Shown one piece after another: positions 1-64,000 of a stretch of DNA of 64,000 nt. Positions within the stretch are counted from its first letter, which is position 1, and the number at the start of each line of letters is the position of its first letter. The position numbers and the translations under genes were made by a program. Under the pieces are notes generated by a model, which saw only the letters and a program-made list of their open reading frames with translations, made no database searches and was not told the DNA's origin. Location: NCBI GenBank assembly GCA_000092065.1, contig CP000581.1; one strand, written 5' to 3'. This DNA comes from Ostreococcus lucimarinus (lineage: Eukaryota).

Positions 1-14
1 ACATCATTCATAAG

Positions 15-428
15 TTGTCGTTCGGGGAAGAATTTCCGGGCGTGGTGAACCCGCTGGACGGCGTGACGAGGACGATGGACGACGCGAACGCCGGCGTGTA
101 TCAGTACCGACTCTCCGTCGTCCCGGCGCGTTACAAGTACCTAGGCTTTCGCGCGCGCGTGGTGGAGAGTAACGATTACTCTGTCACCGATCATTTTCGT
201 GGTTTTGACGTGACGAAGAATCCAGGTCTGCCAGGCCTCTTCTTCTTTTACGATTTGTCGCCGTTGCGCGTCGAGTACGAGGAACGTCGAATCGGATTTT
301 TTCAATATCTGTCAAACGTCGCGGCCATCATAGGCGGCGTGAGCGCGGTGGTGAACATCGTAGACGGCTTGGTGTATCGCGGCCAGCGCGCGTTGCGAGA
401 AAAGGTCGATTTAGGGAAGCAAGGGTAG
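15..428 (+). CDS. C-terminal part of an ERGIC3/Erv41/Erv46-like ER-Golgi vesicle transporter, 5' truncated by the window edge
   Basis: The listed ORF starts with TTG, so the true start lies upstream of the window. The C-terminal motifs FFFYDLSPLRVEY and the TM segment FFQYLSNVAAIIGGVSAVVNIVDGLVY match the COPII-coated ERV family. Confidence 0.45.
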   Translation: MSFGEEFPGVVNPLDGVTRTMDDANAGVYQYRLSVVPARYKYLGFRARVVESNDYSVTDHFRGFDVTKNPGLPGLFFFYDLSPLRVEYEERRIGFFQYLSNVAAIIGGVSAVVNIVDGLVYRGQRALREKVDLGKQG

Positions 429-536
429 CGTTGTGATCAGATGTTGCATCAAATTACAGGACGTCAAAATACACTCGACGGCGAATTTTCATCCTTCCGT
501 CGTTTTATTGAAAGTTGCGAGAATTTAAGAGTTTGT

Positions 537-1379
537 TCAAGGCGGCGGGCCGTCTGGGTGGCACCTCTTGCGAAGATCCATAGCTTCCTTCGCGCACCGC
601 TGACCCAGCGCCGCTAACTTTCGCATGCCATCCAAGAAAGAAAGCGTACCGTCCGCGATGGCCGCCTTGATCGCGTCGTAATCGTCGTGGCACTGCCGTT
701 CGAGCCTTCGCGCCTCGGCGTCGCAGTCATCCGGGTCATCGCCGAAAGTCTCGCCACTTCCGACGACTTGGATCTCCCCGACGCACTTCGACACCTCCGC
801 CGCGGTCTCCGTCGCGCACGCCTGTCCGAGTTCGGCGAACGAAGCCGCGCACTCGAAAGGCGCCAGCTCGTTCTTTTCGCAACGCGTCTTCAACCGCGCC
901 GCCTTCTCCTCGCATTCCTTTTCGATCCTCGTCAGCTCGCGCTCGCACGCCTTCGTCATTTCCGCGCACGATTGTCCGATTTCCATCATCTTCGTCGCGC
1001 ACGCTTCGCCCACCGTCACGAATTCCTTCGCCGCGTCCTCCGCGCTCGCGTCGCCTCGCGAAAACGCCGCCGCCGCGTCCCGCAGCGCCTTCGCGCACTT
1101 CTCTCCCTCCTCCGCGACCTCGTCCACGCACGACCGCGCGTCATCGGCGTCACCGCCGCCGAGCGCCGCGAGCGCGCTCCGCACCAGCGTCGCGAGCGCG
1201 TCCCGCGCGCTCCCACCGTCGCGAACCGCGCGCGCCAGCGCGCGCGTCCCGTCGTCTCCCGCTCGACGATTCGCGACCGCGCGCGCGTTCGCACCGCGTA
1301 TTCCACCGCGCGAGGCGACGATCGCGACGAGCGCGACGAGCGCGACGCTCGAGCGCGCGCGCGCGCGTCTTCGAGGCAT
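537..1379 (-). CDS. hypothetical secreted Ala/Glu/Cys-rich protein with an N-terminal signal-peptide-like segment
   Basis: 280-aa ORF with a hydrophobic VALVALVAIVA stretch after a basic N-terminus. Regularly spaced Cys in KxCxE contexts. No recognisable family. Confidence 0.3.
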   Translation of the reverse strand: MPRRRARARSSVALVALVAIVASRGGIRGANARAVANRRAGDDGTRALARAVRDGGSARDALATLVRSALAALGGGDADDARSCVDEVAEEGEKCAKALRDAAAAFSRGDASAEDAAKEFVTVGEACATKMMEIGQSCAEMTKACERELTRIEKECEEKAARLKTRCEKNELAPFECAASFAELGQACATETAAEVSKCVGEIQVVGSGETFGDDPDDCDAEARRLERQCHDDYDAIKAAIADGTLSFLDGMRKLAALGQRCAKEAMDLRKRCHPDGPPP

Positions 1380-1528
1380 CGCGCGACGCGCTGTGCGACG
1401 ACGCGCGCGGGAGGATTCGACGCGCGTCTTGTAATCCGTGTGTTACATGTCCCGGTCGTGAGACTTTATCCACTCGGCGCGCCGACGCGCGCGCGACACA
1501 CGACGACGACGCGCGACGACGACGCGCG

Positions 1529-2284
1529 ATGCCGACGGCGATGACGACGACGATGGGCGCGCTCGCGTCGACGCGGAGCGGGACGCGACAGAGCGCGAAC
1601 GCGACGCGACGCGCGCGAAAAGCGCGCGGGACGATGATGGTGACGTCGGCGATGATGACGACGGCGGGACGACGCGCGGGACGCGCCTCGGTCGTGACGC
1701 GGGCGAGCGAGGAGACGGAGGATGAATTCGAGGCGAAACTCGGCGCGCTGCGAGGGAAGCGGTCGAAGCGGGCGGCGAACAGCTCGACGGGTGCGGCGGA
1801 TGAGGTCGGCGACGCGCCGAAGCGAAGCGCGGCGTCGCAGCAGAGCCGAGCGAAGGGCGTGCGCGAATTCACGGTGACGGAGAACATCGATGAGCCGGCG
1901 ATCGATTGGGGTAACGAGACGATTGTGTTCGAAGGACCGCCGGCGAGAGGGGAGGTGGTGGCGAACGTGGCGATGTCGTGGACGCTGGTGTGGATTCCGT
2001 TGGCGATTCAAGCCGTCGGTCGCGCGCTCTGGTTGAAGTATAAGATTACGGACAAGCGCGTGAGCGTGATTTCGGAATCTCCGTTGAGGAAGGAGCGCAC
2101 GGATATTCCGTTGGATCAAATCGCGGACGTCATCTCCGTCGGCCGCGGGATCGGGGCTTGGGGGGACATGGTCGTCACGCTTCGGAACGGAGAAAAGGTT
2201 GAGATTCGCTCGTTGCCGGATTTCAAAAAGTGCGAAGACGTGATTCGAGAGAAGATGTACAAGGAAAAAATCATCGATTTTTAA
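1529..2284 (+). CDS. membrane protein with a bacterial-type PH domain (bPH_2/YdbS-like) and a Ser/Thr/Arg-rich presequence
   Basis: ATG start. Hydrophobic segment WTLVWIPLAIQAVGRALWL followed by ITDKRVSVISESPLRKERTDIPLDQIADV...GDMVVTLRNGEKVEIRSLPDF, typical of the DUF304/bPH_2 family. AT-rich 3' region follows at 2285-2345. Confidence 0.4.
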   Translation: MPTAMTTTMGALASTRSGTRQSANATRRARKARGTMMVTSAMMTTAGRRAGRASVVTRASEETEDEFEAKLGALRGKRSKRAANSSTGAADEVGDAPKRSAASQQSRAKGVREFTVTENIDEPAIDWGNETIVFEGPPARGEVVANVAMSWTLVWIPLAIQAVGRALWLKYKITDKRVSVISESPLRKERTDIPLDQIADVISVGRGIGAWGDMVVTLRNGEKVEIRSLPDFKKCEDVIREKMYKEKIIDF

Positions 2285-6028: not shown

Positions 6029-6201
6029 AATTTAATGTAGTTTGCGTTCGCGCGACGACTGTAAAATAACATGTTTCTCTTCGTGCGCTCGAGTCGACGA
6101 CACACTGCGTGACGCGCGGAGTTTCATGCGCGGCGAGCGAGGGAAGACGCAGCAAGACCCGAGGACGGGGACGATCGAAGACGAGACCGCGCTCGACACG
6201 G

Positions 6202-6305
6202 GTGCGCGACGCGACGACGCGACGACGTTTCTCTGAATCGCTGCGTGAGAATCTCAATCAGCGTTTCCAACCGTGACTGACGCGCGCGCCTCGCGTGACG
6301 CACAG
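6202..6305 (+). other. spliceosomal intron in the 5' leader upstream of the Tfb4 gene
   Basis: 5' splice site G|GTGCGCGAC at about 6202, the same as the ALAD and PWWP introns. Branch point ACTGAC at about 6276. AG at about 6305. Confidence 0.45.
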
Positions 6306-6475
6306 AGATAGAGCGAGTCGTCGGTGCGGAACGTTTTGACGCGGGACAGGGCGCGGTGCGGACGGATATCGGGTTCTTCGACGACTTTGACGACGATTTC
6401 GACGAGAGGGCGATTCGAGGGGACGTCGCCGTCGCCGCCGAAGAGAGACGAGACGGCGCGTCGTCCGAGTAAATC

Positions 6476-9655: not shown

Positions 9656-11042
9656 TCATCCGACGAACCCGAAGTATTCTGGATCGTTTTGTATGAGTTT
9701 CGTGCGATTATTCAATCGATGTGTGTCGTCGTCGCTCTCGCACTCGTCATCTTTGCGAGCGTCGCGTAAGGCTTCTTCCACGACGGCGGATGTCGGCACT
9801 GGGCGCGGAGCGAGCGCCTTCATCGCTTCCTCCAAAGTGGCGTATTGCGGGAGTGGACGGATCCCGAGGAGTTCTGGCGTTCGTGCTTGTTTGTTCTTCA
9901 CCAACATATCGTCGTCAGCTCGCATGAGGGCGTACATGATCATGTCTCGCGTATCTGCCATCGCGTCTTCGACGACGAAACGCGAGGCGCCGGCGACGAC
10001 GTACGCGCGCGACGATTTGGCGTTCATCGAAGCCGCTTTGACGATGAGCTCGGCGTCGCGCGCGTCGATGCGCGAGGAGTGTTCACCGTATACAACTGCG
10101 AAATGGCACGACACAGTTTCGATCGATCTCCACACTGAGTCTTCGTCGTACTCGCAATAAAACTCAGGATCCATTCGCCAGCGCCATAGCGCCTCTGCGC
10201 CATCGTCGCGTCGCGAACCGCGCGTGATCGTGCAAAGCGCGCGCAAGCACACGTGTTTCAAGTTACGCCGCTCCGGGTCCACGTCACTTGTGGTGATAGA
10301 CGGCGATAACAATGCGTGTACCGCACCTACCGCGTCCTCAAACGCCGCTGCTTGCAATGGGTGGAATGCAAACGCGTCGATCGGAGCCAGCGGCGAACAT
10401 TCCACCAGCACCGTCGACGCGACCAGCCTCGGGTTCTTGTTTTCCACCATCGTCGCGACGATGCCACCCATACCGATTCCGACGATCGTCAACGGTCGAA
10501 CGTATAAATCGAGCTCGATGATGAAAGACTCGATGTCGTCGGCTAAATCGCTCGGCGAGTATCGCTTTTCGCGCGACCACGTCGTCTCGCCGTGTCCACG
10601 CAAATCGATCGTGTACGCCCGATACCCGCGCTCACTCAAAGACTTTGCGATACCACAATACACGTCTCCACACTCCCCGACGTCGTGCAAAACGAGCACG
10701 ACGCGATCATCGCCGCCGTACTCGCGATACCGCATCCGCATCCCAGTCCCGACGTCCGCGAACCGCGCCTTTGCCCCCGAACCCAACTCGCGCTCGTGCG
10801 CCTCCGCCGCCACCATCGCGCGCTCCAAACGCCTTGTGTCAGCGTGCGGCGCAGTCAACGCTCGCACGATCACCGCGCTCGTCGCCATCGCCGTCAACGC
10901 GCTCGTCGGCGCCTTCAGTCCGAATAACGCTTCGCACTCCGCCCTTCGTCGTTCAGTTCGCGCGCGTCGGTGCGACGGCGTCGGCTCCCACGTCTCGAGC
11001 GGGATCGCGTCGAGCGCGGCATCGATGTCGTCGAGATCCATC
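9656..11042 (-). CDS. alpha/beta-hydrolase fold protein
   Basis: VVLVLHDVGECG, the nucleophile-elbow GIGMGG and a long C-terminal region. Start taken at internal ATG (MDLDDIDAALDAIP). Confidence 0.5.
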
Positions 11043-13300: not shown

Positions 13301-13999
13301 CTATTCTCCGGAAACCGGAGACGTCTCCGCGGGTCGGGTTTCGATGACTTCATCAATGAGTCCAAACTCCTTAGCGTCTTCAGGAGTCATGAACGTATCA
13401 CGCTCCAGAGTCACGCCGATCGAGTCGAAATTTTGCTTGGTATGTTTCATGTAAATCTGAACGAGCTTCTGGCGAACGTTCAATATCTCTTGCGCGTGAA
13501 TGGCGATATCGCTCGCCTGCCCCGAGGCCCCTCCGCTCGGTTGATGCAACATCACGCGCGAATGCGGTAAACTTCTCCTTTGACCCGGTTCGCCCGCCGC
13601 GAGCAACAGCGACCCCATACTACTCGCCTGTCCCACGCACAGCGTGTGTATGGGCGGCGACACGTACTGCATGGTGTCATAAATCCCCAATCCAGCCGTC
13701 ACGCTTCCTCCCGGGGAGTTGATGTACATCCAAATCGGCTGCGTCGGGCTCACGCTCTCGAGAAACAGCAGCTGCGCCACCGTGAGCGAGGACACGTTGT
13801 CGTCGATCGGTCCGTTCACGAAAACGATGCGCTCTTTGAGCAGGCGCGAGTAGATGTCGAACACGCGCTCGCCACGGTTCGTTTGCTCGAGCACCATCGG
13901 CACGAGGGCGTACGTTCGCGGGTGCGCGATGCGCGATGGGTGCGAAGACGTGCGCGATATGAGCGCGCGAGAAGCACCACGAAGCGCGTTTCGAAACAT
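13301..13999 (-). CDS. clpP: ATP-dependent Clp protease proteolytic subunit (nuclear-encoded, organellar presequence)
   Basis: [67 protein letters not shown] and the catalytic region [32 protein letters not shown]. Confidence 0.85.
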
Positions 14000-16695: not shown

Positions 16696-18468
<1,773 letters not shown>

Positions 18469-22643: not shown

Positions 22644-24608
22644 ATGCGCGCGAGCCGCGGGGACATCAAGCCCGAGCTCGACGACGATAATCCGTGCGTG
22701 CGACGACGCGAACGCGACGACGCGCGCGAACCGACGACGAAAGAGACGCCGCCGCCGCCGCTGACGACGGACGACTGACGACGCGTTTCGACGGACGCAG
22801 CGTCGTCGAGACGATCCCGGTGTACTTTAATCGCCCGCCGGACGATGGCGGAGAGATGGTTCTGATTCAGGTGCGAAAACCGCGCGGAAAGCGCGCGCGA
22901 GACGCGCGCGAGGCGAGCGAGAGAGCGATCGATGGGGACTGACGAGACGCCGCGACGGCGACGAGGAACGCAGTACCCGCTGCGACCGCCCGATCGGCCG
23001 TACGACGTGGCGAACGTGGAGAGCGTGCGATATAAACCCGATGCGGCGAAACTAGAGATGACGATGCCGATCGAGGAGAGCGAAAGAAATCGAGACGAGG
23101 ACGCGGCGGAGCACACGCGAATTTCTTCGCTGCTGTTGACGAGCTCGAGCGCGAAGGCGGAGGCGCACGGAGACGGAGTGGTCGTGGGCACGATACATAA
23201 CGGGGCTATGTATTTGACGCCGATCGAGGCGGTTTATCAGATGCGACCGAGTTTACAGCATTTGGACGCGGCGGATAGCGCGAGGCAACCGCACGACGCG
23301 GCGCGAGAGGAGCGAGAGTTGCAAGAGGAGGAGGAACGCATGCTGCTGCCTCTTCAGGTGCAAGTGCGACGACGAGAGACGGCGAAACAGACGGAAATGC
23401 GAGTGCAGTCGCACGCGTTTTTGCGGCAGCGTGAGCACGAGGAGGCATGGATTCCGTTGCAGCCCTCCATGCCGGGAGATGCGGATACAGAGTTCGTCAA
23501 GGCGTACGTGACGACGACGCACGGCGAGTCGTGCGGACAGGCGGTGACGGCGAGAGAATACCTCGACGTCATGTGCCCTGTGAGCGGAAGCAAACGCGTC
23601 GCTCCCGAGGACGAAAATGCCAACACTTTGGGCGATGGAACTGGGTTGAGCAAGTCTCAGCTCGCGTCTCTGCCGCTCGATAGACGTATTCGAGCGTTGT
23701 TCGCCAAGGGTCAAAAGTCGTGCATGAAATTTAGCAGGATTCGTCAATTCGTGACGGAACCCATAGAGCCTGAACAATTGATCGCGGTGATTCAAGACAG
23801 CGCACACTTGGTGCAAGGTAATTGGGTGGCCAAGTCCACGCTGCGGTGCGGTGGGAACGTGACCTGGGAAAACATGCGAGACTCGGCGCTCTTTCAGTTC
23901 GCGCGTTCGCGCAACGTCAAACCAGAGTTGGTATCCAACTGTTTGAAGCGTAACAGCACAAAATCGGATCCAACGTTGGCAAAGATGCGTCGCGAAGTTC
24001 TCGCAGAATTCTCTCGTCCTCGAGGTTACGGTAGCGCAGCAGATGGTTTCGAGTTCAACGAAGCCACCGACGAGGCGTTCGAAGCAGAATTCCCCGACGT
24101 CGTCTCGCGAGAGATGGAATCGTGGCTCGCCTTGGCGCCATCCCTCGACATCACGTTGCTCACCAACGAATTGACGACGCCGAGCGTACCGCCACACGTC
24201 TCACAAATTCGCCTCACCACCGTTCGCTCGCTCGTGTACGCGAAGTTTGAGAAGAGGACCCACCTGAGCTTGGCGGACATTCGCGCGTTTTTGCTGACGC
24301 AAGCCCCCGACGTCGCGGCGTGCGCATACTTTCGACAAGCCGAACTTCTGGGGATGTTCGACGGTGATATCGCGTGCATCGAGGGTATTTGCGTTCTGGT
24401 ATCCGTGAACGACCCCGCGATCGACCCTCTTCGCAGGAAAATCTTAGGTTTGCTCTACAAGCAGAGCGGCGTTGTCAAGCGTTCCGAAATCATGGACGCC
24501 CTCGGCGACGGCGCGCCCAGTCAGCACACCTACACCAAAGTCCTCTCAGACTTGTGCTCATCGAAAGGAAGCATTTGGACCATTAAGGCGGCGGAGGAGA
24601 TGAGGTAA
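22644..24608 (+). CDS. RPC5: DNA-directed RNA polymerase III subunit Rpc5 (POLR3E/Sin-like), three exons: about 22644-22693, 22801-22870, 22974-24608
   Basis: The spliced N-terminus MRASRGDIKPELDDDNP|VVETIPVYFNRPPDDGGEMVLIQ|YPLRPPDRPYD matches the human POLR3E N-terminus (DDPVVQEIDVYL...LFQYPVRP). Further in, AMYLTPIEAVYQMRPSLQHLD matches LHLTPLHGILQLRPSFSYLD. Both introns show GTGCG 5' splice sites and ACTGAC branch points. The track ORF starting MGTDETP begins inside intron 2; its ACTGAC is the branch point. Confidence 0.6.
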
Positions 24609-31536: not shown

Positions 31537-33117
31537 ATGGAACCGGGAGCGATCGCGCTCGGCAAGGTGGCGCGCGCGCCGGCGCAGCCGTGCAGGGTGC
31601 GCGCTCGATCGACCGCGCGCGGCGACGACGACGACGAAGGACGAGGCGACGACGCGAACGGCGGACTGACAATTCGACATCGAACGCGTCGCGCGCCGTA
31701 GATTCTGCGCGATGACGAAGCCGCGGACGCGCTCAAGGCGAAGAAGGGTTCGCGCAGGGTGTATTGGTTCGGCGCGAGGTCCCTCGGTCACGTGGCGGAG
31801 AAGGAGTTGAAGGCGTGGGACGCGGACGCGTTCGAGGCGTCGCTGGCGGAGGTGAAACGCGGGAGGGATAAACTGGAACTCGCGCTGGAAGAGGCGAGAG
31901 CGCACGAGAACGGTGGCGGTGCGGTGAGCGTGGACGTGGGATCGACCCCAGAGGCGGTCGTGGAGACGGCGGCGAAGGAGGGGAGCGAGGCGGAGACGCC
32001 GGCGCCGGCGCCGGCGGCGAAGAAGAAGCGCGGAGGAGGCGGGCGTAAGAAAGTCATCGAGGAAGAGGAAGAGGCGGCCCCGGCGGAGGTGGCGGGAGAA
32101 GAAGAGACGCAAGCGGCGAATGATGACGTTGAAGATTACAAACCGAACGCCGAGGAGGAGGAGGCGAAGCCGAGCGGCAAGAAGCGCAAGCTCAGTAAAA
32201 AGGCTGACGGCGAAGACAAAAAGGATAAACAGCCCGCGGAGAAGAAGCCGGCGAAATCGAAAAAGGTAGAAATCGAAAAACCAGTGATCAAAGTACCGTC
32301 GAGTACACCTAGATTGTTAGAGTTGAAAACCGAGCTCGAGGATGGGCTGCAGGCGTACGAGGACACGCAAGAGCAACAAGAGCGTGCTCGATTGGAGCTT
32401 GAAAAAGCAAAGGAAGCCGTGGCTGCGGCGCAGATGAAAGTGGAGCAGGCAAATTCGCACGCCAACCGCGTCGTTCGAAGATTGAAGCAAACCGCTCGGC
32501 ATATTCAGGAGCAAAGCGTGAACCCAGTCATGTTGCAGGAAACGTTAATCACCAAAACCGTGAAAAAAGGTAGCAAGGTGAAGGATCCTTCGCTCGCAGA
32601 CTTTGCAAAGACGTGTGGAACGGTGATGGTAGAGTGGATCGAGCTTGTACGAACCTCTGCAGTGAACATGGTCGCCGTTCAGCCCGTGGAAGAGGTGAAG
32701 AAAGTGGTCAAGGAGGAAAATTCGGCGGAGGACGTGAAGATGGAAGACGCTGAAGACAAGCCCGCGACGGATTCACCTGCCAAGTTAAACTTGCCTCCGG
32801 TATTAGCGGAAACATTTGCTAAGAAGGGGTCGGTTGCCAAGCCCGCGGCTCCGGCTGCTGGCGGAGTACCTAAAGAGCCCGCGCACGACGCCACTCGTCT
32901 CCGCGTGGCACGCTACTTGGAGCAAGAGCACGGCTTATCTCGAAACGCCTCGCTCACGCTCGAAGCTGCGCTTTTCGATCAAGCGGGGGAACCAGGTATG
33001 GCGTACAAAGCCGCGCTCAAGCGCATCGTGAACCAGCCGTCCATCATGTCGTCCAACGCGCCGGCGCTCGATTCAGGCACAGTCAAACCGGCGCTCTTGC
33101 TCGCGTTTCGAGGTTAA
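31537..33117 (+). CDS. PWWP-domain protein with a charged/coiled-coil middle region, two exons: about 31537-31596 and 31702-33117
   Basis: Exon 1 MEPGAIALGKVARAPAQPCR plus exon 2 ILRDDEAADALKAKKGSRRVYWFGARSLGHVAEKELKAWD reconstitutes a PWWP domain (compare HDGF GDLVFAKMKGYPHWPARI...[23 protein letters not shown]). The 105-nt intron carries an in-frame TAG, a GTGCGCG 5' splice site and an ACTGAC branch point. Confidence 0.5.
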
Positions 33118-44506: not shown

Positions 44507-44782
44507 TCAATCCTCCTCCTCGCTCTCGTCCTCGTCCTTGGCGTTGATCCTCTCGCACGCGTCGATCCAATCGCTGTACACGTCGATCGGTTCGCTCAGG
44601 TGCGTGATGTTGCACGTGTACTTCTGTCCGCACGTCCCGCACTCCACCAGCCCCTTCTCGGCGACGTGATCGAGTCGCGCGAACACGCTCTTGTCGTGAT
44701 TGCAAAACGGACACGTGAACGTCGTGTCCACCTTCGGGGCCACCTTCTTGGGCGGCGGCTTGGAGCTCTTGCGCTTGCCCAT
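44507..44782 (-). CDS. ELF1: transcription elongation factor 1 homolog (ELOF1/Elf1), zinc-ribbon
   Basis: MGKRKSSKPPPKKVAPKVDTTFTCPFCNHDKSVFARLDHVAEKGLVECGTCGQKYTCNITHLSEPIDVYSDWIDACE is near-identical to the ELOF1 consensus. Acidic tail. Confidence 0.8.
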   Translation of the reverse strand: MGKRKSSKPPPKKVAPKVDTTFTCPFCNHDKSVFARLDHVAEKGLVECGTCGQKYTCNITHLSEPIDVYSDWIDACERINAKDEDESEEED

Positions 44783-45036
44783 GGCGAGCGCGCGCGGGCG
44801 GTCGTGCGACGAGCGATGCGGCGCGCGCGCGACTCTGCGGACGGGACGACGGACGACGGACGACGGACGACGGACGACGCGCGCGCCACACGCGCGCGCG
44901 AACGACGCGCGGCGCGAGCGATGGCGACGCGCGCGAACGCGCGCGGCGCGCGCGCGACGCGCGCGAGCGCGCCGACGGTGACGTCGCGCGTCGCGCGGGG
45001 ACGGCGCGTCGCGGATAAAACGCGTGGGACGCGCGG

Positions 45037-46025
45037 GATGACGGCGGCGGCGAGCGTGGCGTCGACGAACGAGTCCGCGGAGGCGGCCGCGGCGCCGGCG
45101 GTGGTGTCGACGTCGACGTTCGCGAGCGCCGACGACGCGGAGCTGCGCATGACGTGCGAGGCGTTCGCGCCGGGGAGCGCGTTCGCGCTGACGGATACGA
45201 GCGGCGGCGTGAATAATCACGTGCGATATTGCGATTGCGAGAACGGTGAGCGATTCGTCGTTCGATTATATAATAATGGACGCGAAACCGAGCGTGTTTG
45301 AACTCATTCCTGGTTCGCTCCCGAAGACGCGCTTCGCCGACGCGGTGGGAGAGGCGACGGCGGCGCTTTCGAAGTGTATGGAAGAAGCCGAAAGCGAAGT
45401 GCGTGCCGTTGCTCCGGTGAGCCCGACGAGCGTGTATCGGGACATCTTCGGAGCGTTCATCAAGAAAGGTGGGTCGCGCGATGCATTTTTCGTCGAGGCG
45501 GAGACGAACCCAGGTTTGGATGCCGTTCGAGTTTCGGTGAACGACTTGCTCAACTCTATTCGCGTACTTGAAGAAAAATTGGCCGACATCGAATCTTCGG
45601 GAGGCTTACCCGAGACGCTGATCCACGGCGACGTCCATTACGATAATTCCCTCGCGGATGAGACGACGGGTAAAGTCACGGGCATCATCGACTTTGAGTT
45701 TGCATCGTACGACTGGCGTATGATGGAAGCCGCCGCAGGTTTGTCCAAGTACGTCGGCGAACGCGATCCTCTGCCGTTCGTTGTCGACTACATCAAGGGA
45801 TTTTGCCGGCGCGCGACGCCGACCGAGGCCGAGATCGACGCCCTTCCGGACTTGATAAAACTTCGCGTGCTCGAAACCGTCGTGTACTTCGTCGCGAGAA
45901 GCGCCGCGAAAGAAGACGACATCTCGCAACTAGCGCTCAGAGCCGAAAACTACGCCGCGCGCGTTCGATGGATCGACGCCAACGCGCAAGTCATTCGCGA
46001 CACCATGCGCACCGCGCTCGCGTAA
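45037..46025 (+). CDS. aminoglycoside-phosphotransferase/CHK-like kinase-fold protein with a reading-frame disruption near 45280-45300
   Basis: The N-terminal piece (frame of ORF 44600-45301: TDTSGGVNNHVRYCDCENGERFVVRLYNNG) and the C-terminal piece (ORF 45246-46025: LIHGDVHYDNSL...VTGIIDFEFASYDWRMMEAA, Brenner motif plus DFE) are in different frames with a stop between. No GT...ACTGAC...AG intron is apparent. Confidence 0.4.
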
Positions 46026-46186
46026 ACGATCGTTATTTTTTAACTATTCTTTCTCCATTCACTCGCGCGCTCGCGCGCTCGCGTTTTCGCTCTTCACTAA
46101 AACCGTAAAATCCACGCCTGGATGCAATCTCGAGATCTTCGTATGCGCAAACAGTCGCGGGCGACGCGACGGCACAACTCGACACG

Positions 46187-47557
46187 ATGCTTTCGACGAC
46201 CATCACCACCCCGAGCGCTTTCGTGAAGCCGCAAGCGCCGCGAACGCGCGTCAAGGCGCGCGCCGACAGCACCATGGCCCCGCCCACGACGCGCGTGCCG
46301 CCGAGAAACCCCGAAGGTGCGCGACGGCGCGATCGATGCGCGCCGACGCGATGTCGTGGTTTATCCAGTGCGATGGGTGACGATGACGACGCGTGTGACG
46401 GCGTGCGATGCGTGAACGACGCGATGGGGATGAGAAAGGATGTGAAATGATATCGATCGCCGCGAAACGCGTCGACGCGGGCGAACGCGATGACTGACGA
46501 GTGTGGATGACGATTGATTGCTCCAGGCGCGCCGACGGTGGTGCCGCAAGATTTGCCGAGCCGACCGCGACGCAACCGCCGCTCGCCGACGGTGCGAAAG
46601 GCGTTCCGCGAGACGATTCTCACGCCGGATAACTTCATTTACCCGATTTTCGTGCACGAGGGCGATGAGAACATTCCCATCGGTTCTATGCCGGGACAAG
46701 ACCGCCTGAGCTTCAAGAATGGCATGATCAAGCAAGTGCGCGAGGCGCGCGCGGCCGGCGTGAACCAAGTGGTCGTCTTCCCGAAGACCCCGGATAACTT
46801 GAAGACGGCTTGCGGGAAGGAGGCGTTCAATCCGAACGGCTTAGCCCAACGCTCGATCTCGTTGTTGAAGGATACGTTCCCCGATTTGGAAGTGTACACC
46901 GACGTCGCGCTCGATCCGTACAACACTATGGGCCACGACGGCATGGTGCGCTCCGACGGCGTCGTCATGAACGACGAAACGGTGTACTATTTGTGCCAAC
47001 AAGCCGTGTCCCAAGCGCGCGCGGGTGCTGATGTTATTTCTCCGTCCGATATGATGGATGGTCGCGTCGGTGCCATTCGCCAAGCGCTCGACGACGAAGG
47101 TTTCACCAACGTCGCCATCATGAGTTACACCGCCAAGTACAACAGCGCGTACTACGGTCCGTTCCGTGATGCCTTGGCGTCGGCGCCGCGTCCGGGTAGT
47201 GAAGACTGGAAGATTCCGAAGGACAAGGCTGAGTACCAAATGGACCCGGCCAACTACCGTGAGTGCTTGCGCGAAGCTGCTCTCGATGAACAAGAGGGCG
47301 CGGACATCATGATGGTCAAGCCGGCGGGCGCCTACTTAGACATCATCCGCGCGCTTAGAGACAGCACCACGCTCCCAATTTCCGCGTACCAAGTGTCTGG
47401 CGAATACTCCATGTTGAAGGCTGCCGCCGCGGCGGGTTACCTTAACGAACGCGATGCGGTCTTGGAATCCTTGATCGCCATCAAGCGCGCCGGAGCCGAC
47501 TTGACGTTAACGTACTATGCCATCGATGCCGCCAAGTGGATCCAAGAAGGCAACTAA
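46187..47557 (+). CDS. HEMB: delta-aminolevulinic acid dehydratase (porphobilinogen synthase), plastid-type, two exons: about 46187-46316 and 46527-47557
   Basis: Exon 1 encodes the transit peptide MLSTTITTPSAFVKPQAPRTRV...RNPE. Exon 2: GAPTVVPQDLPSRPRRNRRSPTVRKAFRETILTPDNFIYPIFVHEGDENIPIGSMPGQDRLS...YTDVALDPYNTMGHDGMV. Intron has a GTGCGCGACGG 5' splice site, ACTGAC branch point 28 nt before the AG, and is about 210 nt. Confidence 0.85.
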
Positions 47558-47795: not shown

Positions 47796-48549
47796 TTAGT
47801 AGAAGTAGCCGAGCACCTTGCCACCAACCTTCTTGCGACGGGCCTCCTCGTGGTCCATGATGCCCGACGACGTGGTGAGCACGATGACACCAAACAAACG
47901 AGAGGGCAAAAGTCGACCAACCCAGTCCTCAAGGTCGTGGTGGGACAAATCATAACGCGGGCTACGAGTTTAAAACCATTCATCGTCAGTCTCCGAGTCT
48001 TAATCGACGTTTAAAGAAGACGCGCTTCTCGACGAGCGTTCGCGCAGACCCTAAAACACACGCACCTGATGACGCCGCACTTGTTGATACGTCCGTTAAG
48101 CTCAACGACGATCTTTCCCGCTCTGTGATCATCAATGAACTCGAATTCGTTGATGTAGCCTATTCGTTGTAAACCATTCCGTCGTCAGTCTCCACATTCA
48201 TCCTGTGATGCGCGCGCCGCTTTCAGGATCGTTCGCGCGCGTCCCGCTCGCGTTCCCCTCTCTTCACACGTACCGTGCTTTTGCATCACTTGCAAGAACT
48301 TGATCACCACCTTGGAAACCGGGCGCACGAGCACCTGACGCTTCCCACGCTTTTCCGCGTTGTACATCGACTCTGCAGAGCGCGCGAACACGATCGATCG
48401 CGAGGTTAGTCACAGACCCTAAAACACCACAGCGCGAGGACGCGATTCGGCGCCGTCGCGACACGCGCGACGTCGCGACGCGTCATAACGCGCGTGCGAA
48501 CGATGATAGACGTACTGAGAGTGTCATTCAAGACGCTGATTCGGACCAT
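47796..48549 (-). CDS. RPS15A: 40S ribosomal protein S15a (uS8), four exons: about 48549-48516, 48372-48274, 48159-48066, 47961-47796
   Basis: Spliced product [12 protein letters not shown]|[33 protein letters not shown]|[31 protein letters not shown]|[54 protein letters not shown] is co-linear with eukaryotic S15a over about 130 aa. Introns are 143, 115 and 104 nt, with GTACGT/GTGCGT 5' splice sites and ACTGAC branch points. Hand-derived coordinates may be off by 1. Confidence 0.85.
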
Positions 48550-48664: not shown

Positions 48665-48830
48665 GAGGCCGTCGGGCGTCTGAAGGAGTCTGCTCGTGAT
48701 ACGGACGACGACGATGGTCATCTGAAGGAGTCTACTCGTGATACGGACGACGACGATGGTCATCTGAAGGAGTCTACTTGTAATACATACATACGATGAA
48801 GATCGTCATCTAAAGGATTCTAGGACGCCG
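48665..48830. repeat. tandem minisatellite, about 3.5 copies of a 42-bp unit (CTGAAGGAGTCTACTCGTGATACGGACGACGACGATGGTCAT)
   Basis: The repeats are visible directly. The track ORF 48524-48763 shows MTIVVVRITSRLLQ repeated. It spans the cyclophilin stop codon and 3' region and lies upstream of RPS15a. Confidence 0.7.
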
Positions 48831-58984: not shown

Positions 58985-59077
58985 CGCGATCGCGCGCGCC
59001 GTCGACGCGTCGCGCCGTGCCGACGCCGTCGACGCGGCGCCGTCGCGCGCGAATGAATCGGCGCGCGGCGACCGACC

Positions 59078-59096
59078 TAAACCCTAAACCCTAGGA
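59078..59096. repeat. interstitial telomere-like repeat (CCCTAAA)2.5, a telo-box-like element in the divergent promoter between the NOG1-like and PP2C genes
   Basis: gacctaaaccctaaaccctagg is visible. It lies about 95 bp upstream of the minus-strand NOG1-like start. Confidence 0.6.
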
Positions 59097-60349: not shown

Positions 60350-61432
60350 TCACGCAAGCTCGTCGTCGAGACCGCGCACGAGGAGCATGAACCACAGAGC
60401 GCTCGTGAAACTCTTCTCTTTAATCGTCATCGTCAACGCGCCGGCGAGGACGGTTTTCACGAGCTGCGCGTCGAGACCTTTGTACATACCACTCACGCCT
60501 TCTTCTCTGTGCACTCGCTTGAGCGTGCCTAATAGCGAACGTCTATCTTCCTCGCGCGTTCCCGCCTTTTGCAAAACCTTGGCGCGCACGAGAGGGTACG
60601 TCAGCATCGTCGCCGTCGCCTTGGACGCGGCGCCGAGGACAAAGGCGTCAAACATCGACAACTCCACGACGGGCTTTAAGATCCCACGCCGCTGCGCGCG
60701 AGCGTTGTGCACGATCATCAACTTTTGACGAAGTTGCTCGAAGACGGTGTATTGAATCGCGGGATTGATCGTCAGCGCGAGTGAAGCGCCGAGACCGCTA
60801 TACAATCCGCCGCGCGCGTCGGCGGCGCCTCGTCCGCCTCGCAACGCTCGTAAAGTGTTTTTGAACCCATCATCGCCCTCGTCGTCATCGAACGCCTTTG
60901 AGCCAGTATCACCGACCGTTTTCTTTCCTTCCAGTTGTTTCCGCGTCGTGTACGTATCTAAAGGCTCCGTGACGAGCACGTTACAGCATCCCGCCGCCGC
61001 CGCCGCCGCGAGCGTCGCCCCCACCCCAATCTTTTTCCCCGTTCGCTCCTCGTACGTCCGCTTCAGCGCGCTGAACGCTAAAAAGTACAAAAAGCTCGAC
61101 GAAAGCGAATGTGCCGACTTCGCCAACGCCCCACCGTACGCCCCCGCCGCGCCTTCCTCGCGAAACACCCGCGCCAACTTTGTCACCCACTGGGGACACC
61201 AAAAACCGTTACCGTCGTCGTCGGCTTCCGAGTTGTTTCCGCGCGCCGCGCTCTCGGCCTGGATCCGCGTCTTCACCGTGTCGATCGGGTATAACGCGAG
61301 CGTGCCGAACAATCCGCCGAGCGCGCCTGCGAACGCGCGCGTCGTCGTCAGTCGCGCGGTTTCGTCGGAAGCGATCGAGCCGTGCGAACGCGTCGAGCCG
61401 TCGAGACGCGCGCGGCGCGACGCGAGACGCAC
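60350..61432 (-). CDS. mitochondrial carrier family (SLC25) protein, possibly a peroxisomal/adenine-nucleotide carrier type
   Basis: Three carrier repeats: AGALGGLFGTLALYPIDTVKTRIQ, a second PxD/ExxK-type, and AGALTMTIKEKSF. The first signature is close to PMP34/Ant1-type YPLDTVKTRLQ. Confidence 0.6.
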   Translation of the reverse strand: MRLASRRARLDGSTRSHGSIASDETARLTTTRAFAGALGGLFGTLALYPIDTVKTRIQAESAARGNNSEADDDGNGFWCPQWVTKLARVFREEGAAGAYGGALAKSAHSLSSSFLYFLAFSALKRTYEERTGKKIGVGATLAAAAAAGCCNVLVTEPLDTYTTRKQLEGKKTVGDTGSKAFDDDEGDDGFKNTLRALRGGRGAADARGGLYSGLGASLALTINPAIQYTVFEQLRQKLMIVHNARAQRRGILKPVVELSMFDAFVLGAASKATATMLTYPLVRAKVLQKAGTREEDRRSLLGTLKRVHREEGVSGMYKGLDAQLVKTVLAGALTMTIKEKSFTSALWFMLLVRGLDDELA

Positions 61433-61608
61433 CGGCCAAGGCCTCGACGAGGATCTTATCGTTCGACGTGAGCTTGCTCGACGCCTTGATGACGGACGTC
61501 GTCGGCGTCGGCGTCGACATCGCGAGAAGAGCGTGGAGAAGTGCGGCGCGGCGCGACGCGACGGGCGACGCGGAGGAAGTCGACTCGTGGAATATTATAT
61601 TGAAAAGC

Positions 61609-61839
61609 TTACTTGAGGAGGAGTTCGGCGCATTGCACGGCGTTTAAGGCGGCGCCCTTCTTGATTTGGTCACCACACACGAACAAATCCAAGCCCTTGT
61701 TGTTGGGCTGGGAGATGTCTTGACGGATGCGACCGACGTAGACGTCGTCGTTATCCGTGGCGTCGAGACACGCCGTAACGCGTCTGCGCGCGATCGTCTC
61801 TCTCGTCAGTCTCCCGCGTCGCGTCGTCCTCGCGCGCAC
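61609..61839 (-). CDS. unassigned small coding segment, probably a terminal exon (..[57 protein letters not shown])
   Basis: Minus-strand ACTGAC at about 61811-61806 followed by AG about 21 nt later suggests a 3' splice site at about 61790. Coding-like composition downstream to a TAA at 61609. No family recognised. Confidence 0.2.
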
Positions 61840-62204
61840 GCACCGGCACCTCGCGACGACTCTCGCGTCGGTCGTCGACCGTCAACGCGCCGAGACGCGC
61901 GCGCGCGCCCACCGTCTCGCGCGAGGACGACGACGGTGAAGACGACGCATCGTCTCGCGACGCGTCGGCTCGCGACGCGTCGGCTCGCGACGAGCGCGCC
62001 TCCACGCGCGCGCGAGGGCGCGCGTCCACGAGCTTGTCGCGCCGGGACGCCCGGCGCGCATGCCCCCAGCGCTTGTGCGTGAGACGCCCGCGCGCGTCAT
62101 CAATCAGTTCGCAGCATGGGGAATCCCCATGCCCGAAGAGCGACGCGACGCGGGCGACGAACACTGACGCGCGCGACCAAGACTCGTGCCCGGGTGGGCA
62201 CCTG

Positions 62205-62400
62205 CCGTTTTTTGTTTTTTTGTTTTTTGTCTATCTACTGTAAAGAGAATGTTAAATATGTAACATCGTGTGGGTCCGCTTTAAGTAGTTTAGGTCCGCT
62301 TTAGTACCTAGTAGTGTTTGGATCCGTTATAGTGCTATCTTGGGTCCGCCCTCAGTGGTCGTCCCGACCGACCGACCGACCGACCGATCGACATTCTGGC
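62205..62400. promoter_or_regulatory. AT-rich island with a T-rich tract and degenerate GGGTCCGCTTTA-type direct repeats immediately upstream of the peroxidase gene
   Basis: ttttttgtttttttgttttttg, then gggtccgctttaagtag / taggtccgctttagtac / ggatccgttatagtgc / gggtccgccctcagtgg. It ends with (CCGA)n ccgaccgaccgaccgaccgatcgac. Confidence 0.35.
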
Positions 62401-62419
62401 GCGCGCGCGTCGCCCCGCG

Positions 62420-64000
62420 ATGGACGAATCGACGCCGTTGATCGGGCGGCGACGGGAAGGGAGACGCGGCGCGCGCGGCGCGCTCGTCGTCGGCGCGCTC
62501 GCGTGCGCGTGCGGAACGCTCGTGGCGTTGGCGAATTGCCCGCACCTGGTGTCGACACTCTCACGGGCGATTGGTGTTGGAGACGCGGACGGCGCGGGTG
62601 CGCGCGGGGTGAACGCGGTCTTCGCGCGCCTCGGTGCGGTGTGGGGACGCGATGATTCTGATTACGTGTACACGTCGCTCGAACGTGATTTACTGCGCCC
62701 TCACGAAGACGACGATGAAATCGAAGACGAAATCGACGAAATTGACGCCGACGCGAAGGACGGAAAGGTTGCCGAACACACTTCGACAGACCAACTGCAC
62801 GGTCGAGGAAACGAAGGCTTGGCAAAGGTCGCAACTCTGGGCGAGCCCGCACTTCCGACCGATTTGCCGCCGTCACGCGCGTTGGCGACGCTCGACGAGA
62901 TTGAAGCTGTTTTACTGGGCAACTGGCGAAAGTGGACGCGCTTGGACGTCGTGCGCGGACGCGCTGAACTGGAAACCGTGCGAGATAAACTCGCTGCTCT
63001 CGTTGGTGATGACGTGAATGAAACAACTGTCGCCAACTCTGCCGCAGAGGTGACAAACGAGACGTCGTTTATTTCTTGCAAGGCTGAACAACTCGTACGT
63101 GAAATCCTGAGTGAGTACGGCGGCGCACCCAAACTTCTACTCCCAAAATTGTTGCGCTTCATTTTCCACGACGCGGTTGACGAGAACAACTTATTAATCC
63201 AAAAGGATGGAGGCTATGTACCGTTTAGGGCACCAACTGGCTCGATATACGGCGGTTTGGACCTTTGCCTTTACTCTCCCCTGACGCATGGAACGTCTGG
63301 GAAACCAGACCCTGGGCATAACAGAAATGTTCGAATGAACCGCGAGGTTATCAAATTGTGTGACGCTGTCTGTAAAGATTTGAATACTGGTTTATGTGAA
63401 CTGCAGAATGATAAACCTAAACGGTGCTATACGGACATGTTAGCGTTTAGTTCCATAATCGTTCTGGAGAAGCACTCAAAGCTTAGTGCCCCATCTTCAA
63501 TGGTTTGGGGAAGGCGAGGCGGTGAGTGTGGCAACAGCATCGTTACACCATTTACCAAAAGCAGGGAGAAGCTTGAATCCTACGTTGGAAAACCTGCGCT
63601 GAACTTTGCGCCGGCGCTTCATGCCATGGACGATCCCGGCACCTTCTCGAGAGTCTTTGCAAAACTTGGATTTACGCCTTCAGAGCACGTCGCGTTGATG
63701 GGAGCTCACAGTGTGGGTAAAATTTCACCATGCGCGAGTGGACTCAACGGTATCGAAAAAGGTAACTTTTGCCCGATGAAGAAGCGATATGATCCACCCA
63801 TCGAGATAGGGAATGAATCCCCACAGTGCCAGCCACAAAAACACGTTCAGGGCAACTGTTGGAAACCCTCTGGACCGAAGTCTTATGCCACTCCGTATTA
63901 CTACTTCTTTCGTGGTGGGAGAACAGGGTACAAGACCGGCTTCGCCGACGGTGGGGTTTGGGATCACACGCCTGATTCGCTTGACAATCAGTATTACAAG
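62420..64000 (+). CDS. plant-type heme peroxidase (peroxidase-catalase superfamily class II/III-like), 3' truncated by the window end
   Basis: Open frame with no stop from ATG (MDESTPLIGRRR) to position 64000. It is absent from the ORF track because there is no stop. Signal/TM ALVVGALACACGTLVALA. Distal-His motif LLRFIFHDAV. Proximal-His motif HVALMGAHSVGK. Many Cys in the C-terminal half. Confidence 0.6.
   Translation, partial: MDESTPLIGRRREGRRGARGALVVGALACACGTLVALANCPHLVSTLSRAIGVGDADGAGARGVNAVFARLGAVWGRDDSDYVYTSLERDLLRPHEDDDEIEDEIDEIDADAKDGKVAEHTSTDQLHGRGNEGLAKVATLGEPALPTDLPPSRALATLDEIEAVLLGNWRKWTRLDVVRGRAELETVRDKLAALVGDDVNETTVANSAAEVTNETSFISCKAEQLVREILSEYGGAPKLLLPKLLRFIFHDAVDENNLLIQKDGGYVPFRAPTGSIYGGLDLCLYSPLTHGTSGKPDPGHNRNVRMNREVIKLCDAVCKDLNTGLCELQNDKPKRCYTDMLAFSSIIVLEKHSKLSAPSSMVWGRRGGECGNSIVTPFTKSREKLESYVGKPALNFAPALHAMDDPGTFSRVFAKLGFTPSEHVALMGAHSVGKISPCASGLNGIEKGNFCPMKKRYDPPIEIGNESPQCQPQKHVQGNCWKPSGPKSYATPYYYFFRGGRTGYKTGFADGGVWDHTPDSLDNQYYK

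What the first reader, a model, noticed from the sequence alone, without database searches (positions are those of the whole stretch)
1..64000. Strict intron grammar: GT(A/G)CG donor plus ACTGAC branch point 20-40 nt before the AG in every intron found
All 13 introns I could define carry ACTGAC (once GCTGAC) 21-38 nt upstream of the 3' AG. They are the tubulin (3), Rpc5 (2), PWWP (1), ALAD (1), RPS15a (3), Tfb4 leader (1), the 61.8-kb unknown (1) and the proposed tubulin intron 1. Donors are GTACGT or GTGCG(C/T). Lengths cluster at 100-160 nt, with one of 210 nt. Such a constrained branch point is unusual for green-lineage introns and is more typical of intron-poor compact genomes. It gives a practical rule for finding the exons that six-frame ORFs miss, as done here.
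Basis: seen in the sequence. Interest (0 to 1): 0.5.

Follow-up and report, generated by a model that had tools for sequence, protein, structure and literature searches.

The report
Known Ostreococcus intron splice signals
The window is Ostreococcus lucimarinus chromosome 1, and its introns do carry very uniform splice signals (GT[A/G]CG start, ACTGAC branch site about 21-35 bases before the end), but this was published for this same species in 2008, so the finding is real and ordinary.

Summary
I confirmed 12 introns by protein homology or by ORF conservation across Ostreococcus clades. All 12 start with GT[AG]CG. All have [AG]CT[AG]AC with the branch A 21-35 nt from the intron end. All end at the first YAG after that motif. 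ACTGAC itself occurs in 10 of 12.

- Tubulin has 3 introns, not 4.
- RPS15a intron 1 uses ACTAAC, not ACTGAC.
- The RPC5 intron 2 donor is GTGCGA.
- The "61.8-kb" intron is not confirmed. Its "exon" is a 178-nt perfect duplicate of the 3' end of the aspartate-semialdehyde dehydrogenase gene, with no start codon upstream.
- The "Tfb4 leader" intron actually interrupts a conserved small ORF upstream of Tfb4.
- A mitochondrial-carrier intron (61327-61432) was missed.

The composite signal gives 13 hits against 2.2 expected by chance.

The window is O. lucimarinus chromosome 1, shown by an exact protein match to XP_001415810.1. Irimia & Roy 2008 reported for exactly this species that 87% of EST-confirmed introns outside chromosome 2 contain ACTGAC, 66.5% contain GACTGACG, and the donor consensus is GTGCGTG.

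Verdict: real, correctly interpreted, already known.

The parts
6202..6305 (+). Intron (104 nt) in a conserved small ORF (ATG 6126, stop 6470-6472) just upstream of Tfb4. Donor GTGCGC, branch motif GACTGACG, branch A 25 nt from the end, acceptor CAG.
   Evidence: The spliced ORF of 69-84 aa, with the motif ERFD...GF[FY]DDFxDD, is kept in 7 loci of at least 5 Ostreococcus clades. The intron sits at the same position in all.
16703..16850 (+). Beta-tubulin intron 1 (148 nt). Donor GTGCGT, branch motif CGCTGACG, 33 nt, CAG. It splits codon 2.
   Evidence: ATGCG|...|CGAAATC reads MREIVHIQ. O. tauri has an intron at the same place, inside its annotated gene.
16912..17041 (+). Beta-tubulin intron 2 (130 nt). 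Donor GTACGT, GACTGACG, 35 nt, TAG.
   Evidence: 46/46 residues match across the junction (FWE|VICDEHG). The position is conserved in O. tauri.
17145..17302 (+). Beta-tubulin intron 3 (158 nt). Donor GTACGT, GACTGACG, 33 nt, TAG.
   Evidence: 51/51 residues match across the junction. The position is conserved in O. tauri. The three O. tauri introns sum to 440 nt, which equals the annotated gene span minus the CDS.
22694..22800 (+). RPC5 intron 1 (107 nt). Donor GTGCGT, GACTGACG, 22 nt, CAG.
   Evidence: The spliced N-terminus reads DDDNPVVETIPVYF. The position is conserved in O. tauri, whose annotation implies 254 nt of intron, matching 160 + 94.
22871..22973 (+). RPC5 intron 2 (103 nt). Donor GTGCGA, GACTGACG, 31 nt. 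The acceptor is the CAG at 22973; a GAG 8 nt upstream is skipped.
   Evidence: Only the 22973 acceptor gives VLIQ|YPLRPPDRPY in frame with the Pfam RPC5 match. The position is conserved in O. tauri.
31597..31701 (+). Intron (105 nt) in a PWWP-domain gene (ATG 31537). Donor GTGCGC, GACTGACA, 32 nt, TAG.
   Evidence: The spliced product matches Pfam PWWP positions 1-91 of 93 across the junction (E = 1.4e-8). The unspliced downstream ORF gave no hit.
46317..46526 (+). ALAD (porphobilinogen synthase) intron (210 nt). Donor GTGCGC, GACTGACG, 29 nt, CAG.
   Evidence: The spliced CDS is 386 aa against 385 aa annotated in O. tauri. That annotation implies a 111-nt intron, which I found at the same position. 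The position is also conserved in two further clades.
48373..48515 (-). RPS15a intron 1 (143 nt). Donor GTACGT, branch motif GACTAACC (ACTAAC, not ACTGAC), 33 nt, CAG.
   Evidence: 28/28 residues match across the junction ([11 protein letters not shown]|[10 protein letters not shown]). The position is conserved in 4 clades. ACTAAC occurs in three of them and ACTGAC in O. tauri.
48160..48273 (-). RPS15a intron 2 (114 nt). Donor GTACGT, GACTGACG, 25 nt, TAG.
   Evidence: 43/43 residues match across the junction. The position is conserved in 4 clades.
47962..48065 (-). RPS15a intron 3 (104 nt). Donor GTGCGT, GACTGACG, 24 nt, TAG.
   Evidence: 52/52 residues match across the junction. The position is conserved in 4 clades. 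The O. tauri total of 424 nt equals the annotated span minus the CDS.
61327..61432 (-). Donor GTGCGT, GACTGACG, 21 nt, CAG.
   Evidence: The spliced N-terminus matches Pfam Mito_carr positions 3-90 of 96 across the junction (E = 3.7e-15). The same position holds in three other clades, one of which uses ACTAAC.
61784..61843 (-). UNCONFIRMED intron-like signal set (60 nt): GTGCGT, GACTGACG, 22 nt, CAG.
   Evidence: No model joins an ATG exon to it with a GT[AG]CG donor. The downstream 'exon' is a duplicate of the ASD 3' end: 178 nt (61590-61767), 100% identical to L053. The donor and branch motif lie inside a 235-267-nt repeat whose second copy follows the peroxidase gene.

Best explanation
These are ordinary U2-type spliceosomal introns of Ostreococcus lucimarinus chromosome 1. 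They carry the lineage's known, unusually uniform splice signals.

**The signals.**
- A 5' splice site |GT[A/G]CG[T/C/A].
- A branch site (G)ACT[G/A]AC(G).
- An acceptor that is the first CAG or TAG downstream, placed 21-35 nt after the branch adenosine.

**Likely mechanism.** This follows from established knowledge of splicing; it was not tested here.
- U1 and then U6 recognise the donor.
- SF1/BBP and then the U2 snRNA GUAGUA box pair with ACU(G/A)-A-C and bulge the penultimate A as the branch nucleophile.
- The second step uses the first YAG reached downstream, so GAGs and AGs very close to the branch are passed over.

**Why so uniform.** In a genome with few introns (about 0.3 per gene here), nearly all splicing information sits in these core motifs. 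That is why they are near-invariant, as in hemiascomycete yeasts.

**Shown here:** the motifs, their spacing, correct exon junctions, and conservation across clades.

**Inferred:** the actual branch nucleotide and the snRNA pairings.
For: - **Species.** The window ORF 13301-13999(-) is exactly XP_001415810.1 of O. lucimarinus CCE9901, on a 1,152,508-nt contig. Gene order matches O. tauri chromosome 1.
- **Junctions.** Tubulin, RPS15a, RPC5, ALAD, PWWP and carrier proteins are restored by splicing.
- **Signals.** All 12 introns fit the grammar.
- **Statistics.** The composite pattern gives 13 hits against 2.2 +/- 1.5 expected. Ten of the 20 ACTGAC copies lie in 1.2% of the sequence.
- **Across clades.** In 38 orthologous intron instances, GT[AG]CG occurs in 36/38. 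The branch motif is ACTGAC in 30, ACTAAC in 5 and GCTGAC in 3. The distance is 21-37 nt. The acceptor is CAG in 26 and TAG in 12. Outside the splice signals (and two short conserved elements, see side observations) the introns share little alignable sequence.
- **Annotation.** O. tauri's annotated gene span minus CDS equals the intron lengths I derived: RPS15a 424, ALAD 111, tubulin 440, RPC5 254.
- **Literature, signals.** Irimia & Roy 2008 (PMC2483917, section 8) report, for EST-confirmed O. lucimarinus introns outside chromosome 2, 87.15% ACTGAC, 89.97% ACTRAC and 66.5% GACTGACG. They give the 5' consensus as GTGCGTG at 4.8 bits.
- **Literature, U1.** bioRxiv 10.1101/2022.06.08.495308 reports the same atypical donor in five Mamiellales, with a standard U1 snRNA.
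Against: - No transcript data could be consulted, so splice junctions rest on homology and conservation.
- The branch nucleotide is inferred.
- Polymorphism within the species was too low to show selection on the signals: 0/204 signal positions variable against 9/1328 elsewhere in the introns, p = 0.6.
- One motif set (61784-61843) could not be tied to a gene model.
- Two strict-pattern hits are probably false positives inside coding sequence (21010-21090 and 35355-35441 minus strand).
- Introns lacking the motif cannot be excluded in parts of the window where no annotated relative was available: 1-7 kb, 29-36 kb and 60-64 kb.
Confidence: 0.95

Rival explanations
1. The motif co-occurrences are chance matches in GC-rich sequence. 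The 'introns' are artefacts of selecting sequences that fit a pattern.
For: ACTGAC is not over-represented in the window as a whole: 20 copies against 21.6 expected. The strict pattern yields about 2 hits by chance. Two hits do look spurious.
Against: There are 13 composite hits against 2.2 +/- 1.5. Eleven of them restore conserved proteins or domains exactly. The same positions carry the same signals in other clades, although the intron sequence has diverged.
Confidence: 0.01
2. The introns look alike because they are copies of a mobile intron family, like the introner elements of Micromonas. On this view the similarity is not due to constraint on splice signals.
For: The donor and branch motif at 61793-61843 lie inside a 235-267-nt repeat. 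A second copy, 92-93% identical, lies about 5 kb away.
Against: The 12 confirmed introns share only the donor, the branch motif and the acceptor. Their orthologues in other clades occupy the same positions, so they predate the clade splits. The repeat has only two copies in the sequence examined, and it is the one case not confirmed as an intron.
Confidence: 0.02
3. ACTGAC is a transcriptional or other regulatory motif that happens to sit in introns. On this view it is not the branch site.
For: Other short conserved elements do sit in these introns. TTTTAGGGTCT occurs in RPS15a introns 1 and 3, and TTATCCA in the ALAD intron.
Against: - The motif keeps a fixed distance of 21-37 nt to the acceptor in 38/38 instances, while intron length varies from 94 to 211 nt.
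- It fits the universal CTRAY branch consensus.
- It interchanges with ACTAAC and GCTGAC between clades at the same intron, which is what U2 pairing tolerates.
- It is strand-specific with respect to the gene.
Confidence: 0.02

Closest known systems
O. lucimarinus introns outside chromosome 2 (Irimia & Roy 2008, PLoS Genet 4:e1000148; PMC2483917)
   Same: Same species, and a chromosome outside chromosome 2. Same branch motif: published ACTGAC 87%, ACTRAC 90%, GACTGACG 66.5%; here 10/12, 11/12 and 9/12. Same atypical donor consensus GTGCGTG. Same interpretation as the strong signals of an intron-poor genome.
   Different: Nothing essential. This window adds exact coordinates for 12 introns, the 21-35 nt spacing, the first-YAG rule, and conservation in several uncultured Ostreococcus clades.
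Hemiascomycete yeast introns (S. cerevisiae GTATGT ... TACTAAC ... YAG)
   Same: It works the same way. The genome is intron-poor. The donor and the branch site are near-invariant. The branch site sits at a short, constrained distance from the first usable YAG. Introns are concentrated in highly expressed genes such as ribosomal-protein and tubulin genes.
   Different: The fixed branch variant is ACTGAC rather than ACTAAC. That puts G opposite a U of the U2 GUAGUA box, from general knowledge of U2 pairing. The donor is GT[AG]CGT with C at +4 instead of GTATGT. The lineages are unrelated, so this is convergence (PMC2483917).
Small AT-rich introns of the Mamiellales 'big outlier' chromosome region (O. 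lucimarinus/O. tauri chromosome 2)
   Same: Same genomes and, as far as is known, the same spliceosome.
   Different: Those introns are 40-65 bp, AT-rich, and lack a recognisable branch point or strong donor (PMC3491373; PMC2483917). The window's introns are 103-210 nt, 49-73% GC, and carry strong signals.
Micromonas introner elements (Simmons et al. 2015, PMC4540971)
   Same: They are spliceosomal introns in a related Mamiellales genus.
   Different: By definition (from general knowledge and the abstract), introner elements are repeated families with sequence identity over the whole intron. The introns here share only splice signals.

Membership tests
Ostreococcus 'normal-chromosome' U2-type spliceosomal introns (Irimia & Roy 2008) | GT...AG boundaries whose removal restores the reading frame and the homologous protein | tested here: met
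   Met for 12 introns: tubulin x3, RPS15a x3, RPC5 x2, ALAD, PWWP, carrier and the small ORF.
Ostreococcus 'normal-chromosome' U2-type spliceosomal introns (Irimia & Roy 2008) | Strong atypical donor, consensus GTGCGTG | tested here: met
   GT[AG]CG occurs in 12/12 introns in the window and in 36/38 instances across clades. The two exceptions are GTGTGT and GTAAGT.
Ostreococcus 'normal-chromosome' U2-type spliceosomal introns (Irimia & Roy 2008) | ACTGAC (extended form GACTGACG) branch-like motif near the 3' end | tested here: met
   ACTGAC 10/12, GACTGACG 9/12, and [AG]CT[AG]AC 12/12, at 21-35 nt from the intron end. The published values are 87% and 66.5%.
Ostreococcus 'normal-chromosome' U2-type spliceosomal introns (Irimia & Roy 2008) | Located outside the low-GC, intron-dense part of chromosome 2 | tested here: met
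   The window is 57-67% GC throughout. It is syntenic with O. tauri chromosome 1. It holds an exact O. lucimarinus protein from a 1.15-Mb contig. Only about 7 of about 38 genes have introns.
Ostreococcus 'normal-chromosome' U2-type spliceosomal introns (Irimia & Roy 2008) | Removal from transcripts (EST or RNA-seq junctions) | not testable with these tools
   No transcript data are available here. Indirect support comes from the O. tauri annotation, where gene span minus CDS equals the derived intron lengths.
U12-type (minor spliceosome) introns | Donor [AG]TATCCTT and branch site TCCTTRAY 10-15 nt from the acceptor | tested here: not met
   No donor or branch motif in the table has the U12-type sequences. 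All branch motifs are CTRAC, 21-35 nt from the acceptor.
Introner elements (repeated intron families) | Sequence similarity over the whole intron among many introns of one genome | tested here: not met
   Alignments show identity almost only at the splice signals. The only repeat found (61793-62059) has two copies and is not a confirmed intron.
Chromosome-2 (big outlier chromosome) introns of Mamiellales | 40-65 bp, AT-rich, no conserved donor or branch motif | tested here: not met
   Lengths are 103-210 nt, GC is 0.49-0.73, and the motifs are strong.

The most novel reading that the evidence does not exclude
Some of the few introns retained in this compact genome may persist because they carry conserved transcriptional elements. 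On this reading the strict splice grammar is what allows such introns to be kept cheaply.

- An 11-nt telomere-repeat-like block, TTTTAGGGTCT, is invariant in RPS15a introns 1 and 3 in four Ostreococcus clades.
- TTATCCA is kept in the ALAD intron in four clades.
- Around both elements, little beyond the splice signals stays conserved.

Separately, the unconfirmed signal set at 61.8 kb lies in a repeat that flanks an inserted peroxidase gene, next to a perfect 178-nt copy of the ASD 3' end. It could mark an unusual duplication-insertion event or an alternative terminal exon.
Probability: 0.15. Interest if true: 0.4.

Novelty: already known. Interest (0 to 1): 0.12.

Why it matters
The result has practical value only. 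The grammar is a reliable aid for annotating Ostreococcus genes that ORF-based or prokaryote-style gene callers truncate.

- The metagenome gene calls seen miss the first exons of RPS15a, ALAD, tubulin and the carrier.
- The grammar also revealed an apparently unannotated small ORF upstream of Tfb4.

Conceptually, it illustrates the known link between intron paucity and strong core splice signals. That link, the ACTGAC/GTGCGTG consensus and the unchanged U1 snRNA have all been published for this lineage.

Tried and rejected
- **Within-species polymorphism at signals versus the rest of the intron.** I used about 25 metagenome loci of the same species. The result was 0/204 against 9/1328 variable sites, which has no power. 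A first attempt timed out.
- **Rfam and tRNA scans.** I scanned the window and seven related loci to find U1, U2 or U6 snRNA genes for a pairing test. Nothing was found.
- **A gene model for the 61.8-kb 'intron'.** I enumerated all GT..AG combinations with any upstream ATG. None used a canonical donor. That led instead to the ASD-relic explanation.
- **Candidate 21010-21090(+).** Rejected. It would remove the ATG and an N-terminus that aligns with the O. tauri orthologue, which is a single exon.
- **Candidate 35355-35441(-).** Probably coding. It is 87 nt and in frame, it translates into the same acidic repeat-like sequence as its flanks, and its GC3 is no different.
- **Candidates 42203-42316(+) and 25723-25812(-).** Rejected. 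They lie antisense to the DHH and actin-related genes.
- **Candidate 62075-62181(+).** Not supported. It has an AAG acceptor only 14 nt after the motif and no coding evidence.
- **Pfam on the small ORF.** It gave only a weak MYEOV2/COPS9 hit, E = 0.3.

Full report
**Organism**

The window is about 60% GC and densely coding. Its gene order matches O. tauri chromosome 1 gene for gene. The ClpP ORF at 13301-13999(-) is identical to XP_001415810.1/ABO94102.1 of Ostreococcus lucimarinus CCE9901, on a 1,152,508-nt contig. The window is therefore O. lucimarinus chromosome 1, or a near-identical strain. Many marine metagenome contigs carry the same sequence.

**Checking the observation**

ACTGAC is not enriched in the window overall: 20 copies against 21.6 +/- 4.5 in shuffles. 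What is non-random is where the copies sit.

I rebuilt gene models from three sources:
- ORF composition;
- Pfam domains;
- spliced comparison with relatives.

Twelve introns are confirmed (table).

| Gene | Introns | Main evidence |
|---|---|---|
| Beta-tubulin | 3 | The spliced CDS is 444 aa and begins MREIVHIQ...FWEVICDEHG...NEANGGRYVPR |
| RPS15a | 3 | 130 aa, every junction exact |
| RPC5 | 2 | N-terminus DDDNPVVETIPVYF...VLIQ/YPLRPPDRPY |
| ALAD | 1 | 386 aa against 385 aa in O. tauri |
| PWWP gene | 1 | The Pfam PWWP domain spans the junction, E = 1.4e-8 |
| Mitochondrial carrier | 1 | The first Mito_carr repeat spans the junction, E = 3.7e-15 |
| Small ORF upstream of Tfb4 | 1 | The spliced ORF is conserved across clades |

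All 12 introns share these features:
- They start with GT[AG]CG.
- They carry [AG]CT[AG]AC with the branch A 21-35 nt from the last intron base.
- They end in CAG or TAG, which is always the first YAG after the motif. GAG triplets in between are skipped, for example at RPC5 intron 2.
- ACTGAC itself is present in 10, GACTGACG in 9, GCTGAC in 1 (tubulin intron 1) and ACTAAC in 1 (RPS15a intron 1).
- Lengths are 103-158 nt, plus 210 nt for ALAD.

**Statistics**

- Ten of the 20 ACTGAC copies lie within 1,532 nt of intron sense strand, out of 128,000 nt on both strands. The expectation is 0.24 (p ~1e-14).
- A strict composite pattern is GT[AG]CG, 35-200 nt, ACT[AG]AC, 14-32 nt, YAG. It has 13 hits against 2.2 +/- 1.5 (maximum 8) in 300 second-order Markov simulations.
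- Eleven hits are confirmed introns.
- The other two look like the chance background. 21010-21090 would delete a conserved start and N-terminus. 35355-35441(-) reads as ordinary coding sequence.

- Tubulin has three introns, not four.
- RPS15a intron 1 has ACTAAC.
- One donor is GTGCGA (RPC5 intron 2).
- The carrier intron at 61327-61432(-) was missed.
- The "Tfb4 leader" intron is not in an untranslated leader. It interrupts a small ORF of 80 aa, with ATG at 6126 and stop at 6470-6472, three bases before the Tfb4 ATG. The spliced reading frame and the motif ERFD...GF[FY]DDFxDD are kept in at least five Ostreococcus clades.
- The "61.8-kb unknown" intron is not confirmed.
  - Its downstream sequence is the last ~52 codons of aspartate-semialdehyde dehydrogenase (ASD).
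  - The 178 nt at 61590-61767 are 100% identical to the 3' end of an intact single-exon ASD gene of the same species (P0261/L053).
  - Judged from contig overlaps, that intact gene lies about 6.4 kb further upstream, beyond a peroxidase gene. The insertion is absent from the O. tauri-like locus L022 and from L024, where ASD directly precedes the carrier.
  - No start codon or canonical upstream exon can be joined to the signal set.
  - Its donor and branch motif lie in a 235-267-nt repeat that flanks the peroxidase gene.

**Conservation across clades**

I recovered orthologous loci from several sources:
- O. tauri (L005, L020, L021);
- an O. tauri-like metagenome contig (L022);
- several uncultured Ostreococcus clades (L006-L009, L023, L024, L028-L044).

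All intron positions that could be compared are conserved.

Across 38 intron instances:
- Donors: GTGCGT 11, GTACGT 10, GTGCGC 9, GTGCGA 4, GTACGG 2, GTGTGT 1, GTAAGT 1.
- Branch motifs: ACTGAC 30, ACTAAC 5, GCTGAC 3.
- Branch-to-end distance: 21-37 nt.
- Acceptors: CAG 26, TAG 12.

The same intron can have ACTGAC in one clade and ACTAAC in another. RPS15a intron 1, the carrier intron and the small-ORF intron all show this.

Outside the signals the introns are largely unalignable. This is the footprint expected of functional splice signals, and it argues against a repeated-element origin.

O. tauri's annotated gene spans minus CDS lengths equal the intron sums I derived: 424, 111, 440 and 254 nt. 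In the two O. tauri loci, about 28 genes in all, no other gene has a CDS intron. So in the corresponding parts of the window there is no sign of introns without the motif.

**Mechanism**

The pattern is what a U2-type spliceosome with most of its information in core signals would use.
- ACU(G/A)AC pairs with the U2 GUAGUA box, with the penultimate A bulged.
- The first YAG 21-35 nt downstream is taken as acceptor.
- The donor GT[AG]CGT is atypical at +4.

These steps rest on established splicing knowledge. They were not tested here, and no snRNA gene lies in the sequences available.

**Comparison with what is known**

Irimia & Roy 2008 (PMC2483917, section "The Peculiar Case of Ostreococcus") analysed EST-confirmed O. 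lucimarinus introns. Outside chromosome 2 they found:
- ACTGAC in 87.15%;
- ACTRAC in 89.97%;
- GACTGACG in 66.5%;
- a 4.8-bit donor with the "atypical consensus GTGCGTG".

They interpreted this as the strong-signal state of intron-poor genomes, convergent with yeasts. They contrasted it with the weak signals of chromosome-2 introns, which the Bathycoccus genome paper also describes (PMC3491373).

A 2022 preprint (10.1101/2022.06.08.495308) notes the same donor preference in five Mamiellales and finds a standard U1 snRNA, so there is no compensatory change.

The window's figures (83%, 92% and 75%) match the published ones. The finding is a correct rediscovery.

**Verdict**

Novelty: already known. 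Interest is low. The practical rule is useful for annotation, recovering 11 of 12 introns with 11 of 13 hits true in this window.

**Side observations**

These are listed separately in the report:
- the small ORF abutting Tfb4;
- the ASD relic and insertion;
- conserved telomere-repeat-like and TTATCCA elements inside introns;
- a gene present here but absent from O. tauri;
- a stop/start overlap between two genes.

Noticed in passing
window 6126-6472 (+), intron 6202-6305; Tfb4 ATG at 6476: A conserved small ORF of 80 aa here, and 69-84 aa in other clades, carries the motif ERFD...VRxDxGF[FY]DDFxDD. It ends 3 nt before the Tfb4 start codon (TAAATCATG); the gap is 2-51 nt in other Ostreococcus clades. 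It may be a bicistronic small-protein/Tfb4 locus of the kind described in green algae (PMC7896298). There is only a weak similarity to COPS9/CSNAP (Pfam MYEOV2, E = 0.3).
   Followed up: partly
window 61590-61767 (-), repeat 61793-62059; L001 22235-22463; L053 10994-11171: A 178-nt segment is 100% identical to the 3' end (last ~52 codons plus 19 nt) of the intact aspartate-semialdehyde dehydrogenase gene. It sits just upstream of the mitochondrial-carrier gene. Compared with the O. tauri-like locus L022 and with L024, about 6.4 kb (a peroxidase gene and a small gene) appear inserted between ASD and the carrier. A 235-267-nt direct repeat (92-93% identical) flanks the peroxidase gene.
   Followed up: partly
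window 48046-48056 (-) and 48414-48424 (-); also 59075-59090 (-): TTTTAGGGTCT, which resembles the plant telomere repeat or 'telo-box', is invariant in RPS15a introns 1 and 3 in four Ostreococcus clades, although the surrounding intron sequence diverges. A (TTTAGGG)2 copy lies about 95 nt upstream of the NOG1 (ribosome-biogenesis GTPase) start codon. TTTAGGGT occurs 3 times in the window against 0.18 expected.
   Followed up: partly
window 46361-46367 (+), inside the ALAD intron: TTATCCA is the only block besides the splice signals that is kept in the ALAD intron in all four clades compared. It could be an intronic regulatory element of this tetrapyrrole-pathway gene. The heptamer alone is not significantly enriched in the window: 5 copies against 2.0 expected.
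   Followed up: partly
window 44673-46028 (+): An APH/choline-kinase-like gene lies between Elf1 and ALAD. It is absent at that position in O. tauri (L005) and in two other clades (L006, L008), where Elf1 and ALAD are neighbours.
   Followed up: no
window 9656-9659 (-): The stop codon of the alpha/beta-hydrolase gene overlaps the ATG of the downstream NFACT-R gene (ATGA). The same 4-nt overlap appears in all ten metagenome copies of this species. In O. tauri the two genes are 82 nt apart.
   Followed up: no
window 48679-48786: A 42-nt tandem repeat (2.6 copies, 95% matches) lies in the short spacer between the PAN-cyclophilin gene and RPS15a.
   Followed up: no
L002 1-7140 versus window 44.5-51.6 kb: One metagenome contig (L002) is 99.5% identical to the window from 51.6 kb onward. 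Upstream it carries different genes (Cpn60/TCP1 fragments) instead of the ALAD/RPS15a/cyclophilin genes. This is either a structural variant or a chimeric assembly.
   Followed up: no
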